64,000 bases of DNA from positions 21,588 through 85,587 of the forward strand of contig SUUV01000001.1 in assembly GCA_015062345.1 (NCBI GenBank). The letters are read 5' to 3'. Origin of the DNA: Alphaproteobacteria bacterium (GTDB taxonomy: Bacteria > Pseudomonadota > Alphaproteobacteria > RF32 > CAG-239). Under the pieces are notes generated by a model. That model saw nothing but the letters and a program-made list of their open reading frames with translations, was not told the DNA's origin and ran no database searches. This document shows positions 2,692-26,645 of this stretch, piece by piece. Every line of letters begins with the position of its first letter. The stretch's first letter is position 1. A program made the position numbers and the translations under genes.

Positions 2692-4146
2692 TTATTTCCT
2701 CTTAAAATTTGCATCTTGTTCCAATGCAAAACCTGTTTTAAAAATTGTTTCTTCATCAAAGGGTTTTCCTATCAATTGCATACCTATCGGCAACCCTTGT
2801 TCACAAAGTGCGGTCGGCAGGCTCATTGCCGGCAATCCGGCCAAATTTACCGACACCGTAAACACATCGTTTAAATACATATTTATCGGATTTGACTGCA
2901 TTGATTTATCACCGATTGCAAATGCCGTTGTCGGTGATGTAGGCGCTAAGATAACATCACATTTTTCAAATGCACTGATAAAGTCTTGTCTAATTTTACG
3001 ACGAACTTTTTGCGCCTTAACATAATATGCGTCATAATATCCTGCCGACAACACATATGTTCCTACCATAATACGGCGCTTAACCTCTTTACCGAATCCG
3101 GCCGTCCTACTGTTAATATACATTTCATCTAAGCTGCTACCGTCAATGCGTTTTCCGTATCTTAACCCGTCATAGCGAGCCAAATTTGAAGATGCTTCGG
3201 CCGGTGCAATGATATAATATACCGGCAAAGCATATTTTGTATGCGGCAAACTTATATCTACAATTTCGGCTCCTCTTTTTCTTAACATATCGGCGGCTAA
3301 ATCCCAAGCTTTGGCAATTGATAAATTTAATTTATCCGAACGATATTCAAGCGGAATGCCCACTTTTAAACCTTTGATATCAGAGCCCAAAACTTTTGCA
3401 AAATCAGGCACTTCTATTTTGGCCGAAGTTGAATCTTTTTCATCAAAGCCGGCCATATGTTTTAACAAAATGGCGCAATCGGTCACATCTTTTGCCATCG
3501 GACCGGCTTGGTCCAAAGAAGAAGCAAAAGCCATAATTCCATAACGAGAACATCTGCCGTATGTGGGTTTAATTCCGGTGATACCGCAATATGCGGCCGG
3601 TTGTCTGATTGAACCTCCGGTGTCGGTACCGGTTGCCGCTGCACACATCTTGGCACAAACCGCTGCTGCCGAACCGCCCGAAGAACCGCCCGAAACTAAA
3701 TCGATATCTTGGCTCCAAGGGTTAATGCACGGACCAAAAAAACTGGTCTCGTTGCTACCGCCCATGGCAAATTCGTCCATATTAAGCTTGCCTAAAAACA
3801 AAGCTCCCGAATTTAACAAATTGGCAGTTACGGTTGACTCATATTCGGGAACAAAATTTTCCAAAATTTGTGAACAAGCAGTTGTCTTAATACCTTTGGT
3901 ACAAAACAAATCTTTAATACCCAAAGGCACTCCCTCAAGTTGACGAGCCGTATTGTTTAAGTATTTTTCATCAGAAACCTTTGCTTGTTCCAAAGCTGTT
4001 TCTATACATTCGGTTACATAGGCATTATATTTGCGACCGTCTTGCATATTTTTGATATACGCTTTGGTAAGCTCGGTTGCACTAAAATCTTTTTTGCTTA
4101 ATCCGTTAATTGCCTGAGCAACGGTTAAATCGGTTAAATCGGTCAT
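2692..4146 (-). CDS. gatA: glutamyl-tRNA(Gln) amidotransferase subunit A (amidase signature family)
   Basis: Amidase signature [11 protein letters not shown] is present. The start was moved to the internal Met ([15 protein letters not shown]) because a GGAG RBS sits there and it abuts the gatC stop. Confidence 0.9.
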
Positions 4147-4150
4147 ATCT

Positions 4151-4438
4151 TTACTCCACAACTTTCGGCACTGCAAAATAGCCAAACTCACTTAAAGGTG
4201 CATTTTTAAGCACTTCATCTTTTATGTTGCCGTCTTTTACCACATCTTTACGACAAGACAAATTTTCTTCATTTACCGAAACAAGCTGTTCCACATTGTC
4301 GGTGTTCACTTCTTGAAGTTCTGCCACCCAATTTAATATCTTATTAAACTCATCTTTTGTACCTTCAAGCTTATTCTCATCAATTTTTAACCTTGAAAGA
4401 AAAGCAATTTGTTCAACTGTTTGATTATCAACTGCCAT
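4151..4438 (-). CDS. gatC: glutamyl-tRNA(Gln) amidotransferase subunit C
   Basis: 95-aa ORF immediately upstream of gatA, with GatC-like size and sequence ([18 protein letters not shown]). Confidence 0.8.
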
Positions 4439-23499: not shown

Positions 23500-24216
23500 C
23501 TATTTTCGGACTTCAAAAACTTCGAAACTGTTTCTAAGAAATTCTATCAATTTTTTATCTGATATTATCGATTCGCACATTTCATCGGTGGTATCTTTAT
23601 CCGATTCTATCGGCCTGTATTTTTGCAGATAATATTCTCTTACACCAAATTCTTTTAATGTTTTTCCGATTTGAAAAATATCTTCAATGCTTAAAATTTT
23701 TGGGTCACAAGTTGTACGACATTCAAAATTTATACCGCTATCAATCAGGATTTGCAAACTATCAATCACCTTTTCAACTTTATCAAAGCACCCCGTTGCG
23801 GTTTTATATTTTTGCGGTTCAAAAGGAGCTTTTATATCAAGCCCTGCCCAATCAATTTTATTGATAATTTTCTTTAGCATAATCGGATTAAAACCGCCGG
23901 TATGAAGCCCGACCTCAAAACCCAAATTTTTAACTTCATCAATAGCTTGCTCAAGTCCTTCTTGTACCAAAGGTTCTCCGCCCGAAAAAACCACCGCATC
24001 AAGCATTTTTTTGCGTTTTTGCAAAAAGCATTTTAAAGTTTCAAATGTCCACTCGGTTTCAGGTTTTGCCCCAATTTTTTGCAAACTCAAATTGTAGCAA
24101 AACGGACAGCGCCACGGACAGCCTTGCATAAAAACCGTTACTGCTATCTTATTTGGAAAATCGACGATGCTGAACGGTTCAACATCGCCGATTATGATAG
24201 GATTAAAACCATCCAT
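23500..24216 (-). CDS. nrdG: anaerobic ribonucleoside-triphosphate reductase activating protein (radical SAM)
   Basis: CPWRCPFCYN, a CxxxCxxC radical-SAM motif, lying directly downstream of nrdD. Confidence 0.8.
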   Translation of the reverse strand: MDGFNPIIIGDVEPFSIVDFPNKIAVTVFMQGCPWRCPFCYNLSLQKIGAKPETEWTFETLKCFLQKRKKMLDAVVFSGGEPLVQEGLEQAIDEVKNLGFEVGLHTGGFNPIMLKKIINKIDWAGLDIKAPFEPQKYKTATGCFDKVEKVIDSLQILIDSGINFECRTTCDPKILSIEDIFQIGKTLKEFGVREYYLQKYRPIESDKDTTDEMCESIISDKKLIEFLRNSFEVFEVRK

Positions 24217-24222
24217 AAAAAA

Positions 24223-24429
24223 CTACTCTGCAGCCATTGCCAAGTTGTTGTTCATACCGCAAATTGCTTTTTCTTCCTTAAAGCAAACTCTTGTGTAATA
24301 TTCCGATTTTTTACCTTTGTTAAATTCGGAAACCGGACGATGATAGCCCATAACACGGGTCCAAATTTCGCAAGGTTGTCTTTCACAATCGTCTAATTTG
24401 ATGTCGTTTATATCAATTACATTAGTCAT
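24223..24429 (-). CDS. stand-alone glycyl-radical domain protein, NrdD C-terminus-like
   Basis: 68 aa containing RVMGY (a glycyl radical motif, like RVCGY in NrdD) followed by ...FNKGKKSEY. It has its own AGGAG RBS. It is in the same frame as nrdD but separated from it by three stop codons. Confidence 0.55.
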   Translation of the reverse strand: MTNVIDINDIKLDDCERQPCEIWTRVMGYHRPVSEFNKGKKSEYYTRVCFKEEKAICGMNNNLAMAAE

Positions 24430-24468
24430 TTTTGTTTTCTCCTAAATAAAATTTTGTTATGGGTTATT

Positions 24469-26532
24469 TTAAGCTACATTGGTCTCTTTGGCTTTTAAGG
24501 CCTTAATTTTTTCTGCTTTCTTTTCTTCATCACAAAGTGGGCAGAATTTGTGTTCTCCTGACAAATAGCCGTGTTTCGGGCATACTGAAAATGTCGGAGT
24601 AATCGTAATATACGGTAAGCGATAATTGGTCAAAACTCGTTTTACCAAATCACGGCAAACCTTGGCTGATGATATGCGTTGTCCCATATACAAGTGTAAC
24701 ACTGTTCCGCCTGTATATTTTGTTTGCAATTCAGACTGCAAATCAAGAGCTTCAAACGGGTCATCGGTATATCCGACCGGAAGTTGAGATGAGTTTGTAT
24801 AATAGGGATCTTCTTTTGTTCCGGCCTGAATAATATCTTTATATCTTTTCTTATCTTCACGAGCAAAACGATATGTGGCACTTTCAGCCGGTGTTGCTTC
24901 CAAGTTGTACATATGTCCTGTTTCTTCTTGGATTTTTACCATCTTTTCTCTGATATAATCTAAAAACTTAATGGCAAATGCTTGTCCCCACTCATCGGCA
25001 ATGCTGTGTTCATCATCGGTATAGTTTCTTATCATTTCATTGATACCGTTAACACCAATGGTAGAAAAGTGATTACGAAGTGTACCTAAATAGCGTTTTG
25101 TAAACGGGAATAAACCGTTTTGAATAAGTCTTTCTATAACTTTGCGCTTAATTTCAAGTGATGTTCTGGCAATGTTCATCAATTCGTCAACACGACCAAA
25201 CAATCCGGCCTCATCACCTTTATAAACATATCCCAAACGAGCACAGTTAAAGGTAACAACACCAATCGAACCGGTTTGCTCGGCCGAACCGAACAAGCCG
25301 TTTCCTTTGGCTAACAATTCACGCAAGTCAAGTTGTAAACGACAACACATCGAACGAATTTGCCCCGGTTTTAACACAGAGTTCAAAAAGTTTTGAAAAT
25401 ATGGTAAACCGTATTTTGCGGTCATTTCAAACAACAACAATGTGTTTTCGTCTTCCCAAGGAAAATCCCAAGTCATATTGTATGTCGGAATCGGGAATGT
25501 AAACGGACGACCTTTAATGTCACCTTTCATCATAACTGTTATGTAGGCCTTATTTATCATAGCCATTTCTTCTTTTAAGTCACCGTATGTGAAATCTTGC
25601 TCAACTCCACCGATAATCGGGTGTTTATCTCTTAAATCTTCCGGACATACCCAGTCAAAAGTAAAGTTTGTAAACGGTGTTTGAGAGCCCCAACGAGAAG
25701 GAACATTCAAATTATAAATCAGCTCTTGCATAGATTGTTCAACTTGCTCATATGTAAGTCCGTCTTTACGAATGTATGGCGCTAAATATGTATCAACAGA
25801 CGAAAAAGCTTGAGCTCCTGCCCATTCATTTTGCAATGTGCCCATAAAGTTTACCATCTGACCGACCGCAGCCGACAAATGTTTAGCCGGACCGGCCTCA
25901 GTTTTTCCGGGAACACCGTTAAAACCCTCGTGCAACAAGTTTTTTAAAGACCAACCGGCACAATATGCAGCGAGCATATCCAAATCGTGAATGTGAATAT
26001 CGCCGTTGCGGTGAGCCTCACCCACTTCCGAGGGATATACATGGCTGAGCCAATAATTGGCGGTTACTTTACCGGAAACATTTAAGATTAATCCACCGTT
26101 GGAATAACCCTGATTCGCATTGGCATTTACACGCCAGTCAAGTCTTTCCAAATATTCATTGATGGAGCTTTCAACATCAACCATAATCTTTTTATCAGAA
26201 CGCATACGAGTGCGTTGTTCACGGTATAAAATGTAAGATTTCGCAGTCTGAAAATAGTTGTCTGAAATTAACACCTGTTCAACAATGTCCTGAATTTGCT
26301 CAATGCTCGGCAACGATTCGCTAAATTTGTGTTCCATAACTTTTAAGACTTTAGCGGTTAACAACCAAGCTTCCTGTTCCCCAAACTCGCCTGTTGATGT
26401 TCCGGCTTTTAAGATAGCCTGATAAATTTTATTAGAATCAAAAGGAGCTAAAGTTCCGTCTCTTTTGGTAACTTGGTCAATGCTGATATTATCATTTTCT
26501 ACCTTGGGCATTTCATATTTAATTTCTGACAT
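24469..26532 (-). CDS. nrdD: anaerobic ribonucleoside-triphosphate reductase (class III), apparently lacking its own glycyl-radical loop
   Basis: 687 aa with an N-terminal ATP cone (ISIDQVTKRDGTLAPFDSNKIYQAIL) and an NrdD core. The C-terminal Zn site is CPKH...CPLC, and no RVxGY follows it. Confidence 0.9.
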   Translation of the reverse strand: MSEIKYEMPKVENDNISIDQVTKRDGTLAPFDSNKIYQAILKAGTSTGEFGEQEAWLLTAKVLKVMEHKFSESLPSIEQIQDIVEQVLISDNYFQTAKSYILYREQRTRMRSDKKIMVDVESSINEYLERLDWRVNANANQGYSNGGLILNVSGKVTANYWLSHVYPSEVGEAHRNGDIHIHDLDMLAAYCAGWSLKNLLHEGFNGVPGKTEAGPAKHLSAAVGQMVNFMGTLQNEWAGAQAFSSVDTYLAPYIRKDGLTYEQVEQSMQELIYNLNVPSRWGSQTPFTNFTFDWVCPEDLRDKHPIIGGVEQDFTYGDLKEEMAMINKAYITVMMKGDIKGRPFTFPIPTYNMTWDFPWEDENTLLLFEMTAKYGLPYFQNFLNSVLKPGQIRSMCCRLQLDLRELLAKGNGLFGSAEQTGSIGVVTFNCARLGYVYKGDEAGLFGRVDELMNIARTSLEIKRKVIERLIQNGLFPFTKRYLGTLRNHFSTIGVNGINEMIRNYTDDEHSIADEWGQAFAIKFLDYIREKMVKIQEETGHMYNLEATPAESATYRFAREDKKRYKDIIQAGTKEDPYYTNSSQLPVGYTDDPFEALDLQSELQTKYTGGTVLHLYMGQRISSAKVCRDLVKRVLTNYRLPYITITPTFSVCPKHGYLSGEHKFCPLCDEEKKAEKIKALKAKETNVA

Positions 26533-26594
26533 TTCGTTTCCCTATACTGTTTGTTTATACCGTTTTTTATAATCTGTTTCTGTTTGAGTCTGTA

Positions 26595-26645
26595 TACTAC
26601 ATATTGTGTTAATTTAAAGTAAAGAAACAATATATAGTATACACA
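26595..26645. promoter_or_regulatory. possible tandem NrdR boxes upstream of nrdD
   Basis: Two imperfect palindromes, actacatattgtgt and acaatatatagtat(acac), with centres about 31 bp apart, lying 65-110 bp upstream of the nrdD start. Confidence 0.3.

What the first reader, a model, noticed from the sequence alone, without database searches (positions are those of the whole stretch)
24223..24469. nrdD apparently split: the glycyl-radical motif is in a separate 68-aa ORF with its own RBS
The 687-aa NrdD ends shortly after its C-terminal zinc site (CPKH...CPLC) and lacks the downstream RVCGY glycyl-radical loop. A 68-aa ORF 37 bp downstream carries RVMGY followed by an FNKGKKSEY-like tail, which is an NrdD C-terminus. 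It has a strong AGGAG RBS and is separated from nrdD by three stop codons (TAA, TAA, TAG), so readthrough cannot explain it. This could be a functional two-piece class III RNR, by analogy with the stand-alone glycyl-radical spare-part protein GrcA for PFL. It could also be an inactivating lesion or an assembly error.
Basis: partly seen in the sequence, partly recalled or inferred. Interest (0 to 1): 0.5.

Follow-up and report, generated by a model that had tools for sequence, protein, structure and literature searches.

The report
Two-piece anaerobic ribonucleotide reductase (split NrdD)
The anaerobic DNA-precursor enzyme NrdD is encoded here in two pieces, with its radical-carrying tip on a separate 68-residue protein; this layout is conserved in hundreds of bacteria, and phages also carry the small piece alone, yet I found no paper that describes it.

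Summary
All genes lie on the minus strand. A 687-aa NrdD (24469-26532) has the ATP-cone, the barrel and the zinc ribbon, and ends 19 residues after CPLC with no glycyl-radical loop. After a 39-nt spacer (not 37), a 68-aa ORF (24223-24429) with an AGGAG ribosome-binding site carries RVMGY. It matches only the last 37 positions of the Pfam NRDD model. nrdG starts 6 nt further on.

It is not a lesion or an assembly artefact:
- The identical ORF lies on 21 independently assembled contigs in the same layout.
- 60 of the 62 related loci that contain nrdD are split, in all three frame offsets, nearly all with a Shine-Dalgarno match and all but two with ATG.
- These include Cupriavidus necator pHG1, C. 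metallidurans, Paracoccus and Ectothiorhodospira.
- The Pseudomonas stutzeri counterpart (51 aa) was detected by proteomics only under oxygen limitation.

Fused relatives share the same motif, so this is a gene fission in the linker between the zinc ribbon and the glycine loop.

Best reading: an obligate two-subunit class III reductase. Copies of the small gene also occur without nrdD or nrdG nearby, in bacterial chromosomes, prophages and 281 viral contigs. I found no paper describing any of this.

The parts
24469..26532 (-). nrdD large subunit, 687 aa. It holds the ATP-cone, the 10-stranded barrel with the MCCR finger-loop motif, and a Cx2H...Cx2C zinc ribbon. It ends 19 residues after CPLC and has no glycyl-radical loop.
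   Evidence: NF006126 at 1121 bits against a cut-off of 548, over profile positions 3-652 of 684; Pfam ATP-cone plus NRDD positions 2-535 of 562; aligns to T. maritima NrdD 4COI residues 101-616 of 651, stopping just before Gly621.
24430..24468 (-). 39-nt spacer between the two ORFs. After the nrdD TAA (24469-24471) it holds two more in-frame stops, TAA at 24457-24459 and TAG at 24442-24444, and the AGGAG ribosome-binding site at 24439-24443, 9 nt before the ATG.
   Evidence: the junction RNA is unstructured (minimum free energy -1.6 kcal/mol, weaker than 193 of 200 shuffles), so there is no recoding-type structure and the binding site is open.
24223..24429 (-). Small subunit, 68 aa, carrying the glycyl-radical loop. 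RVMGY lies at 24343-24357 and the radical-position Gly28 at 24346-24348. After it come the FNKGKKSEY segment and a clade-specific tail ending in AAE.
   Evidence: AlphaFold2 with a 137-sequence alignment gives mean pLDDT 75 and a beta-hairpin (strands 23-26 and 29-32) with G28 at the turn.
23500..24216 (-). nrdG, the radical-SAM activase (NrdG2 type). It starts 6 nt after the small ORF's stop codon.
   Evidence: TIGR02495 at 192 bits against a cut-off of 131; Radical_SAM plus Fer4_12.
26594..26640 (.). Tentative: two NrdR-box-like 16-bp palindromes (26594-26609 and 26625-26640) whose starts are 31 bp apart, upstream of nrdD.
   Evidence: two mismatches each to ACACWATATATWGTGT; 5 matches in the window against 1.5 expected.. 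Not tested further.

Best explanation
nrdD has undergone a gene fission in the flexible linker between the zinc ribbon and the glycyl-radical loop. The operon nrdD(large)-small ORF-nrdG encodes an obligate two-polypeptide class III ribonucleotide reductase.

Proposed division of labour:
- The 687-aa chain supplies allosteric regulation (ATP-cone), the catalytic barrel with the cysteine finger loop, and the zinc ribbon.
- The 68-aa chain is translated from its own ribosome-binding site. Its beta-hairpin, with Gly28 at the tip, inserts into the barrel.
- NrdG uses S-adenosylmethionine to place the radical on Gly28.

Shown here: the gene anatomy, homology of each piece to the matching part of fused NrdD, conservation of the split, purifying selection, and independent translation signals. 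Taken from a paper: expression of a counterpart in P. stutzeri.

Inferred: docking of the small chain into the barrel, activation by NrdG, and catalysis.

Speculative (about 0.4): the split lets a cell replace only a 7.8-kDa chain after oxygen cleaves the protein at the radical glycine, and lets the radical module be exchanged in trans.
For: Anatomy:
- The large ORF covers the family profile up to position 652 of 684 and the small ORF covers 646-683. Pfam NRDD is split the same way, 2-535 and 526-562.
- The large ORF aligns to T. maritima NrdD up to residue 616, five residues before Gly621 (PMC4493059).

Conservation:
- The small ORF has 2039 homologues, and the best 120 are all 57-111 aa.
- 149 of the 150 best cluster representatives among 1.84 billion proteins are 54-124 aa.
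- Across 137 homologues R17, E21, R25, M27, G28, Y29, R31 and N37 are invariant.
- Median pN/pS is 0.23 with synonymous sites near saturation.

Layout in other genomes:
- Of 62 loci from other species and replicons that contain nrdD, 60 are split. Frame offsets are 0, 1 and 2 in 19, 14 and 27 loci. Gaps run from -32 to +221 nt. All but two start with ATG and nearly all have a Shine-Dalgarno match.
- The same layout occurs in C. necator H16 pHG1, where RefSeq annotates a 676-aa reductase, a 66-aa 'nrdD' and nrdG. It also occurs in Paracoccus, C. metallidurans CH34, and 161 plasmid or chromid records.
- The exact window protein lies on 21 independent contigs.

Expression: P. stutzeri has a 672-aa reductase, a 51-aa ORF and nrdG. 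The 51-aa protein was detected with 113 spectra, only under oxygen limitation (PMC10433244).

Origin by fission:
- 97 fused relatives carry the same ...CE[VI]WTRVMGY... motif. The distance from the last zinc cysteine to the glycine is 11-20 residues in 90 of them and 25-42 in seven. The equivalent distance here is 19 + 27.
- A neighbour-joining tree places most split forms in one large clade with an inferred fused root.

Structural plausibility:
- In P. copri NrdD the glycyl-radical domain is a mobile unit that can leave the barrel (PMC11226230).
- The AlphaFold2 model of the small chain puts G28 at a hairpin tip.
Against: - There is no biochemical proof for any split NrdD: no EPR signal, activity assay or complex structure.
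- I could not model the complex.
- The isolated small-chain model has no significant structural match, and the small ORF alone finds nothing in the PDB by sequence.
- The tree rests on 125 residues and is weakly resolved. It needs at least 9 state changes, so the number of fission and re-fusion events is uncertain.
- Charge complementarity between the large-chain tail and the small-chain N-terminus is weak. The tail has median net charge +0.5, although the N-terminus is acidic in 57 of 60 loci.
- The advantage under oxygen damage is argued only from analogy and from the mostly facultative or denitrifying hosts.
Confidence: 0.85

Rival explanations
1. The small protein is a GrcA-like spare part or a regulator. 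It would only rescue or modulate a complete NrdD encoded elsewhere, and would not be a stoichiometric subunit of this large chain.
For: Free-standing copies with no nrdD or nrdG nearby exist in 18 of 80 bacterial loci, and in 77 of the 80 best viral contigs. GrcA for PFL, and the T4 protein Y06I (recalled from the literature), set a precedent (PMC13450708).
Against: The large chain in this operon has no glycine loop at all, so a complete enzyme requires the small chain. The window holds no second nrdD. The position between nrdD and nrdG is conserved in 60 of 62 loci, often with overlapping or tightly spaced stop and start codons. That is the signature of a subunit.
Confidence: 0.07
2. The split is an inactivating lesion (pseudogene) or a sequencing or assembly artefact.
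For: A nonsense or indel error near a 3' end would look superficially similar. In this window the two ORFs happen to share a frame.
Against: - There are three in-frame stops plus a dedicated AGGAG and ATG.
- The identical sequence lies on 21 contigs from different projects and assemblers.
- The same split occurs in complete genomes of cultured bacteria.
- The small ORF is under strong purifying selection.
- The P. stutzeri counterpart is expressed.
Confidence: 0.01
3. Translational recoding (stop-codon readthrough or frameshifting) or protein splicing joins the two parts into one chain.
For: The two ORFs are in frame in this window.
Against: - Three stops would have to be read through.
- Related loci use all three frame offsets, with gaps from -32 to +221 nt, so there is no conserved recoding site.
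- The junction RNA has no stable structure.
- A 39-nt spacer leaves no room for an intein, intron or homing endonuclease. No family model other than NrdD models matches the small ORF.
- A separate 51-aa product was detected in P. stutzeri by digest-free proteomics.
Confidence: 0.02

Closest known systems
Canonical single-chain class III reductase NrdD with NrdG (phage T4, T. maritima 4COI/4U3E, P. copri 8P23)
   Same: It has the same domains in the same order: ATP-cone, barrel with cysteine finger loop, zinc ribbon, glycine loop RVxGY, C-terminal segment, and an adjacent radical-SAM activase. Fused members of the same subfamily carry the identical ERQxCE[VI]WTRVMGYxRP motif.
   Different: Here the chain is cut between the zinc ribbon and the glycine loop. 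About 30 extra residues flank the cut: a 13-35-residue tail on the large chain and a 20-34-residue, mostly acidic N-terminus on the small chain.
GrcA/YfiD, the autonomous glycyl-radical cofactor of pyruvate formate-lyase, and its phage T4 homologue Y06I
   Same: It is a small free-standing protein that consists essentially of a glycyl-radical loop and presumably needs the partner's activase. Like Y06I, copies of the small NrdD-type gene are carried by phages.
   Different: GrcA backs up a PFL that has its own glycyl-radical domain. In this operon the large chain has none, so the small chain is obligatory. The sequence family also differs: the small ORF matches the NRDD C-terminus, not Gly_radical or GrcA. 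A 2026 review states that spare-part proteins are known only for formate-lyases (PMC13450708).
Split class II reductase NrdJa/NrdJb (Pseudomonas aeruginosa, Thermus phage phiYS40)
   Same: A reductase catalytic chain is encoded by two adjacent ORFs, with the C-terminal functional module on the second chain.
   Different: It belongs to another class (B12-dependent), is cut at another position, and the second chain is large. A 2022 survey called split domains distinct to class II (PMC9669993).
Intron-, intein- or endonuclease-interrupted nrd genes of phages (T4 nrdD group I intron; Aeh1 nrdA with mobE)
   Same: The nrd coding sequence is in pieces. nrdD is the most often interrupted reductase gene in cultured phages (PMC3653736).
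   Different: Those interruptions are mobile elements that are spliced out or that insert a gene. Here there is only a 39-nt spacer with stops and a ribosome-binding site, and no mobile element.

Membership tests
Class III reductase catalytic subunit NrdD (NF006126/PRK08270 subfamily): large ORF | Whole-protein score above the curated cut-off; ATP-cone plus NRDD barrel | tested here: met
   NF006126 at 1121 bits against a cut-off of 548; Pfam ATP-cone E 2.3e-23 and NRDD E 1.4e-178.
Class III reductase catalytic subunit NrdD: large ORF | Zinc ribbon after the last barrel strand, and a CCR finger-loop motif | tested here: met
   CPKH...CPLC aligns to the T. maritima zinc motif, and MCCRL aligns to its SCCR motif (PMC4493059).
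Class III reductase catalytic subunit NrdD: large ORF | C-terminal RVxGY glycyl-radical loop on the same polypeptide | tested here: not met
   The match ends at profile position 652 of 684, and the ORF stops 19 residues after CPLC with no RVxGY. The feature is supplied by the next ORF.
NrdD glycyl-radical loop: small ORF | Significant match to the C-terminal end of NrdD models, with the RVxGY glycine | tested here: met
   Pfam NRDD positions 526-562 of 562 at 34.2 bits against GA 26.2. G28 is invariant in 137 homologues. 97 fused relatives share the motif.
NrdD glycyl-radical loop: small ORF | Radical generated on the glycine by NrdG; oxygen-dependent chain cleavage at that glycine | not testable with these tools
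   Needs EPR and mass spectrometry on purified proteins.
NrdG activase (TIGR02495, NrdG2) | Score above the cut-off; radical-SAM domain with a 4Fe-4S cluster domain; adjacent to nrdD | tested here: met
   192 bits against a cut-off of 131.15. Radical_SAM plus Fer4_12. The gene starts 6 nt after the small ORF.
GrcA/YfiD autonomous glycyl-radical cofactor | Membership of the PFL-type Gly_radical or GrcA sequence family | tested here: not met
   The Pfam and NCBIfam scans of the small ORF return only NrdD models.
GrcA/YfiD autonomous glycyl-radical cofactor | Acts beside a partner enzyme that has its own glycyl-radical domain (spare-part role) | tested here: not met
   The partner in this operon lacks the loop. 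The copies found away from nrdD could fit this role, but that was not tested.
Intron-, intein- or homing-endonuclease-split nrd genes | An intervening mobile element between the coding pieces | tested here: not met
   The spacer is 39 nt and has no stable RNA structure.

The most novel reading that the evidence does not exclude
The glycine-loop chain of this NrdD subfamily is an exchangeable radical-cofactor subunit. Cells would replace only this 6-8 kDa chain after oxygen cleaves it. Phages and prophages that carry the small gene alone (281 IMG/VR contigs) would plug it into the host's large NrdD chain to keep deoxynucleotide supply going during infection. That would be a class III reductase counterpart of GrcA and T4 Y06I, a class of enzyme for which no spare-part protein has been reported.
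Probability: 0.4. Interest if true: 0.8.

Novelty: new variant of a known kind. Interest (0 to 1): 0.62.

Why it matters
- Enzymology. [quoted passage not shown] Here a large, widespread group puts the radical glycine on a separate mini-protein. The group includes model denitrifiers and plant or soil bacteria such as Cupriavidus, Paracoccus, Ralstonia, Bradyrhizobium and P. stutzeri.
- A natural test system. The split offers a way to study how a glycyl-radical loop docks, how it is activated by its activase, and how it might be replaced after oxygen damage.
- Practical consequences. Cloning 'nrdD' alone from these organisms should give an inactive enzyme. Annotation also often misses or mislabels the small gene, as 'hypothetical', 'oxidoreductase' or nothing at all. 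Pipelines may therefore call nrdD truncated.
- Phage biology. Phage-borne copies of the small gene would be a new kind of auxiliary metabolic gene.

Tried and rejected
- Complex modelling. 
- Cultured phage genomes (INPHARED). tblastn found no match, in contrast to IMG/VR.
- Electrostatic zipper between the large-chain tail and the small-chain N-terminus. The tail is not consistently basic, so I dropped the idea.
- AAE ending as a by-product of the nrdG ribosome-binding site. Rejected, because copies with no nrdG downstream also end in AAE.
- P0134. This 1287-aa hit with 12 matched stretches is a low-complexity repeat, not a glycyl-radical protein.
- Literature. Ten full-text searches found no description of a split class III reductase. 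The 1999 paper on the A. eutrophus nrdDG genes (Siedow et al.) is not held, so I could not check how it treated the small ORF.
- Proportion of split genomes. The share of all 592 genome hits that are split could not be determined, because only the best 80 loci are returned and that ranking favours split forms.
Full report
**1. What is in the window**

All relevant genes are on the minus strand.

- The large ORF runs from 26532 to 24469 and encodes 687 aa. It ends ...TFSVCPKHGYLSGEHKFCPLCDEEKKAEKIKALKAKETNVA*.
- A 39-nt spacer follows (24468-24430).
- A 68-aa ORF follows (24429-24223): MTNVIDINDIKLDDCERQPCEIWTRVMGYHRPVSEFNKGKKSEYYTRVCFKEEKAICGMNNNLAMAAE.
- Six nucleotides later comes a 238-aa ORF (24216-23500).

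The spacer carries AGGAG at 24439-24443, 9 nt upstream of the ATG. The small ORF is in the same frame as the large one. The in-frame translation reads NVA*NNP*QNFI*EKTKMTNV, so three stops (TAA, TAA, TAG) separate them.

**2. Identity of the pieces**

- Large ORF. It scores 1121 bits on NCBIfam NF006126 'ribonucleoside triphosphate reductase' (cut-off 548), but only over profile positions 3-652 of 684. In Pfam it has an ATP-cone and NRDD positions 2-535 of 562.
- Small ORF. It matches exactly the missing end: NF006126 positions 646-683, and Pfam NRDD positions 526-562 at 34.2 bits (gathering score 26.2, E 1.5e-8).
- Third ORF. It is an NrdG2-type activase (TIGR02495 at 192 bits, cut-off 131).

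Against solved structures, the large ORF aligns to Thermotoga maritima NrdD residues 101-616 of 651. The alignment ends at that enzyme's zinc-site CPVC plus seven residues. The radical glycine of that enzyme is Gly621. The zinc ribbon sits between the last barrel strand and the glycine loop (PMC4493059). The MCCRL segment aligns with the T. maritima SCCR finger-loop motif.

The large chain is therefore a complete catalytic body with its zinc ribbon. It lacks only the glycine loop and what follows it, and the small ORF holds exactly that.

An AlphaFold2 model of the small chain, built from a 137-sequence alignment, has mean pLDDT 75. It shows a beta-hairpin (strands 23-26 and 29-32) with G28 at the turn, then two helices. 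That matches what is expected of a glycine loop. Structure searches with this isolated model gave nothing.

**3. Not an artefact, not a lesion, not recoding**

- Independent assemblies. The exact 68-aa protein lies on 21 contigs from separate JGI, ENA and Logan assemblies. All eight places inspected show the order nrdD, small ORF, nrdG where the contig extends that far, and the three with a complete nrdD show a 687-aa gene followed by a 39-nt gap. NCBI holds it as a 'hypothetical protein' of Alphaproteobacteria metagenome-assembled genomes. The large chain is 89-98% identical to 120 proteins of 683-700 aa, the named ones from Alphaproteobacteria metagenome-assembled genomes.
- Conserved family. 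The small ORF has 2039 homologues, and the best 120 are all 57-111 aa. Among one representative per 50%-identity cluster of 15 billion proteins, 1577 clusters match. Of the best 150, 149 are 54-124 aa.
- Invariant residues. Across 137 homologues R17, E21, R25, M27, G28, Y29, R31 and N37 are invariant.
- Purifying selection. Against 20 relatives, synonymous sites are near saturation (pS 0.34-0.88) while pN is 0.07-0.22. Median pN/pS is 0.23.
- No recoding signal. The junction RNA is unstructured.

**4. How widespread the split is**

A scan of one genome per species found more than 600 pattern matches, of which 592 were confirmed. I analysed the best 80 loci plus two plasmid loci.

- 62 loci contain nrdD, and 60 of those are split.
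- The small ORF is at frame offset 0, 1 or 2 in 19, 14 and 27 loci.
- Gaps range from -32 to +221 nt. Several are 4-nt ATGA-type overlaps.
- All but two start with ATG, and nearly all have a Shine-Dalgarno match.
- nrdG usually follows within a few nucleotides.

The hosts include gut and rumen Alphaproteobacteria, Sutterella, Massilia, Duganella, Trinickia, Castellaniella, Noviherbaspirillum, Devosia, Afifella and Ectothiorhodospira. They also include assembled genomes of Actinobacteria, Coriobacteriia, Elusimicrobia, Verrucomicrobiota and Acidobacteria.

A tblastn search of plasmids and chromids found 161 records, among them Ralstonia, Bradyrhizobium, Cupriavidus and Paracoccus.

- In Cupriavidus necator H16 pHG1, RefSeq annotates a 676-aa reductase, a 66-aa 'nrdD' (WP_011154154; 'Oxidoreductase' in the GenBank and UniRef records) and nrdG. 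According to the C. metallidurans CH34 genome paper (PMC2864759), this nrdDG system was studied genetically.
- Paracoccus shows the same layout, with the small gene called 'hypothetical protein'.
- C. metallidurans CH34 shows it too. Its genome paper lists NrdDG as Rmet_5137 and Rmet_5139, skipping the locus tag in between (PMC2864759).

**5. Expression**

A proteomics study of Pseudomonas stutzeri lists a 672-aa reductase, a 51-aa ORF with a COG1328 match 75 nt downstream, and nrdG overlapping that ORF by 4 nt (supplement of PMC10433244). The 51-aa protein was seen with 113 spectra, and only under oxygen limitation. The authors did not interpret it as a reductase subunit.

**6. Origin**

I used the C-terminal 160 aa of the one compact fused relative among the loci (L078...FCPQCEALGERQPCEIWTRVMGYHRP...) as a query.

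- 97 hits were fused fragments with the same core motif. They include sequences labelled Propionibacteriaceae, Cellulomonas, Corynebacterium, Microbacterium, Geobacteraceae, Legionellales and Edaphobacter.
- 22 hits were split-type ends.

In fused forms the distance from the last zinc cysteine to the radical glycine is 11-20 residues in 90 cases and 25-42 in seven. The long-linker fused forms contain, in one chain, both the helical-looking tail (for example CDQEILARRKQ...) and the acidic L-x-D-x-ERQxCE lead-in. In split forms those two elements end the large chain and begin the small chain. In the window the equivalent distance is 19 + 27 residues.

A neighbour-joining tree of the 125 residues before the zinc CxxC (175 sequences) puts most split forms in one large clade. 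Long-linker fused forms nest inside it, and the inferred root is fused. The tree needs at least nine state changes and is weakly resolved.

The simplest reading is a linker expansion and fission inside an already mobile region, followed by spread and occasional re-fusion.

**7. Mechanism**

In single-chain NrdD the glycyl-radical domain consists of the zinc site, the buried glycine loop and a surface tail. It moves as a rigid body and can become fully disordered (PMC11226230). The glycine must leave the barrel to reach the activase (PMC4493059). A non-covalently bound glycine-loop chain is therefore structurally plausible.

I propose an obligate large-plus-small enzyme activated by NrdG (confidence 0.85). 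The docking, activation and catalysis steps are inferred, not shown.

Why the split is kept is speculative. Many hosts named in the related loci are, to my knowledge, facultative anaerobes or denitrifiers. Oxygen cleaves glycyl-radical enzymes at the radical glycine (PMC13450708). With the split, that damage would cost only a 6-8 kDa chain.

**8. Free-standing and phage copies (a side finding)**

- Bacterial loci. In 18 of the 80 bacterial loci the small gene has no nrdD or nrdG within 4 kb. Three of these lie in prophage late regions, next to tail-fibre, endolysin, integrase or DNA-methylase genes.
- Viral contigs. A scan of IMG/VR found 281 viral contigs encoding a relative. Of the best 80, 77 have no nrdD or nrdG within 5 kb. 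Ten flanking proteins from these contigs were scanned against PHROGs; those with a named function were a DNA primase, an endolysin, a portal or head-tail adaptor protein, a DNA polymerase, a virion structural protein and a radical-SAM protein.
- Extra radical-SAM genes. One group of viral contigs has two radical-SAM ORFs directly upstream of the small gene.

Cultured phage genomes gave no match. These copies suggest that the small chain can work in trans, like GrcA and the T4 protein Y06I do for pyruvate formate-lyase (the Y06I role is recalled from the literature, not checked here). I did not test that.

**9. Comparison with what is known, and novelty**

The enzyme is a member of the NF006126-type class III reductases in every tested respect except one defining feature: the glycine loop is not on the catalytic chain. 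The small chain resembles GrcA in form, but it is not a member of that family, and in the operon it is not a spare.

Sequence databases have held these small ORFs since the GenBank entry for C. necator pHG1 (accession AAP85991), under names such as 'oxidoreductase', 'hypothetical' or 'anaerobic ribonucleoside-triphosphate reductase'. No dedicated NCBIfam or Pfam model exists for them.

Ten full-text searches found no paper describing a two-chain class III reductase. A 2022 survey of reductase extensions calls split domains distinct to class II (PMC9669993). A 2026 review of glycyl-radical enzymes states that spare-part proteins are known only for formate-lyases (PMC13450708).

I therefore rate it a new variant of a known kind, with two caveats. 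The library does not hold most subscription papers, including the 1999 A. eutrophus study. The window itself is an ordinary member of this widespread arrangement.

Noticed in passing
L083-L162 (IMG/VR viral contigs); L032, L034 and L036 (Alphaproteobacteria genome loci), small ORF at about 4001-4190: The small NrdD-type glycyl-radical gene occurs alone in phages and prophages. 281 viral contigs encode it, and 77 of the best 80 have no nrdD or nrdG within 5 kb. In three bacterial loci it sits beside tail-fibre, endolysin, integrase or methylase genes.
   Followed up: partly
L128:2737-4991 (also L123, L126, L129-L131): Two radical-SAM ORFs (336 and 432 aa; Radical_SAM plus Fer4_12, but not NrdG-like by tblastn) lie directly upstream of the phage-borne small gene. 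They may be phage-encoded activases.
   Followed up: partly
L013:3366-5708, L021:4353-6389, L024:4344-6236: In three gut Alphaproteobacteria genomes a free-standing small gene is followed by a 630-780-aa protein with no Pfam match. The three share an REISYxYAL-like segment near the N-terminus.
   Followed up: partly
L040, L048, L064, L072, L075 (Sutterella): A free-standing small gene lies between a phosphoribosyltransferase gene and an ORF that looks like an M20-type amidohydrolase (identified by eye only). Other Sutterella genomes (L042, L045, L056, L069) have it inside the nrdD-nrdG operon. I could not tell whether any single genome holds both copies.
   Followed up: no
window 24223-24260 (C-terminal tail of the small ORF); A1: In the gut Alphaproteobacteria clade the small protein ends in an invariant AAE, often preceded by a CxC pair. 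This holds for operon copies and free-standing copies alike, so it is not a by-product of the nrdG ribosome-binding site. Its function is unknown.
   Followed up: partly
window 24370-24372 (Cys20 of the small ORF): A cysteine eight residues before the radical glycine is conserved in at least 90% of 137 small-chain homologues and in most fused relatives. It is absent from T. maritima NrdD. Its role is unknown.
   Followed up: no
window 26594-26609 and 26625-26640: Two NrdR-box-like palindromes whose starts are 31 bp apart lie upstream of nrdD. The window has 5 matches against 1.5 expected by chance. This suggests NrdR control of the operon.
   Followed up: partly
L039:3968-4174; P0311, P0343, P0354, P0362: A few relatives are fused but keep the long linker (36-42 residues) that looks like a large-chain tail joined to a small-chain N-terminus. 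L039 even retains the ...RRMNSIVPV... start region. These may be re-fusions or intermediates.
   Followed up: partly
L163 (C. metallidurans CH34 megaplasmid), small ORF at about 2950-3140: The same split is present, but the small ORF is not annotated in the PLSDB record. The genome paper lists NrdDG as Rmet_5137 and Rmet_5139, skipping the locus tag between them.
   Followed up: yes
P0134: A 1287-aa 'hit' with 12 matched stretches is a tandem low-complexity repeat, so it is a false positive of the representative search.
   Followed up: yes
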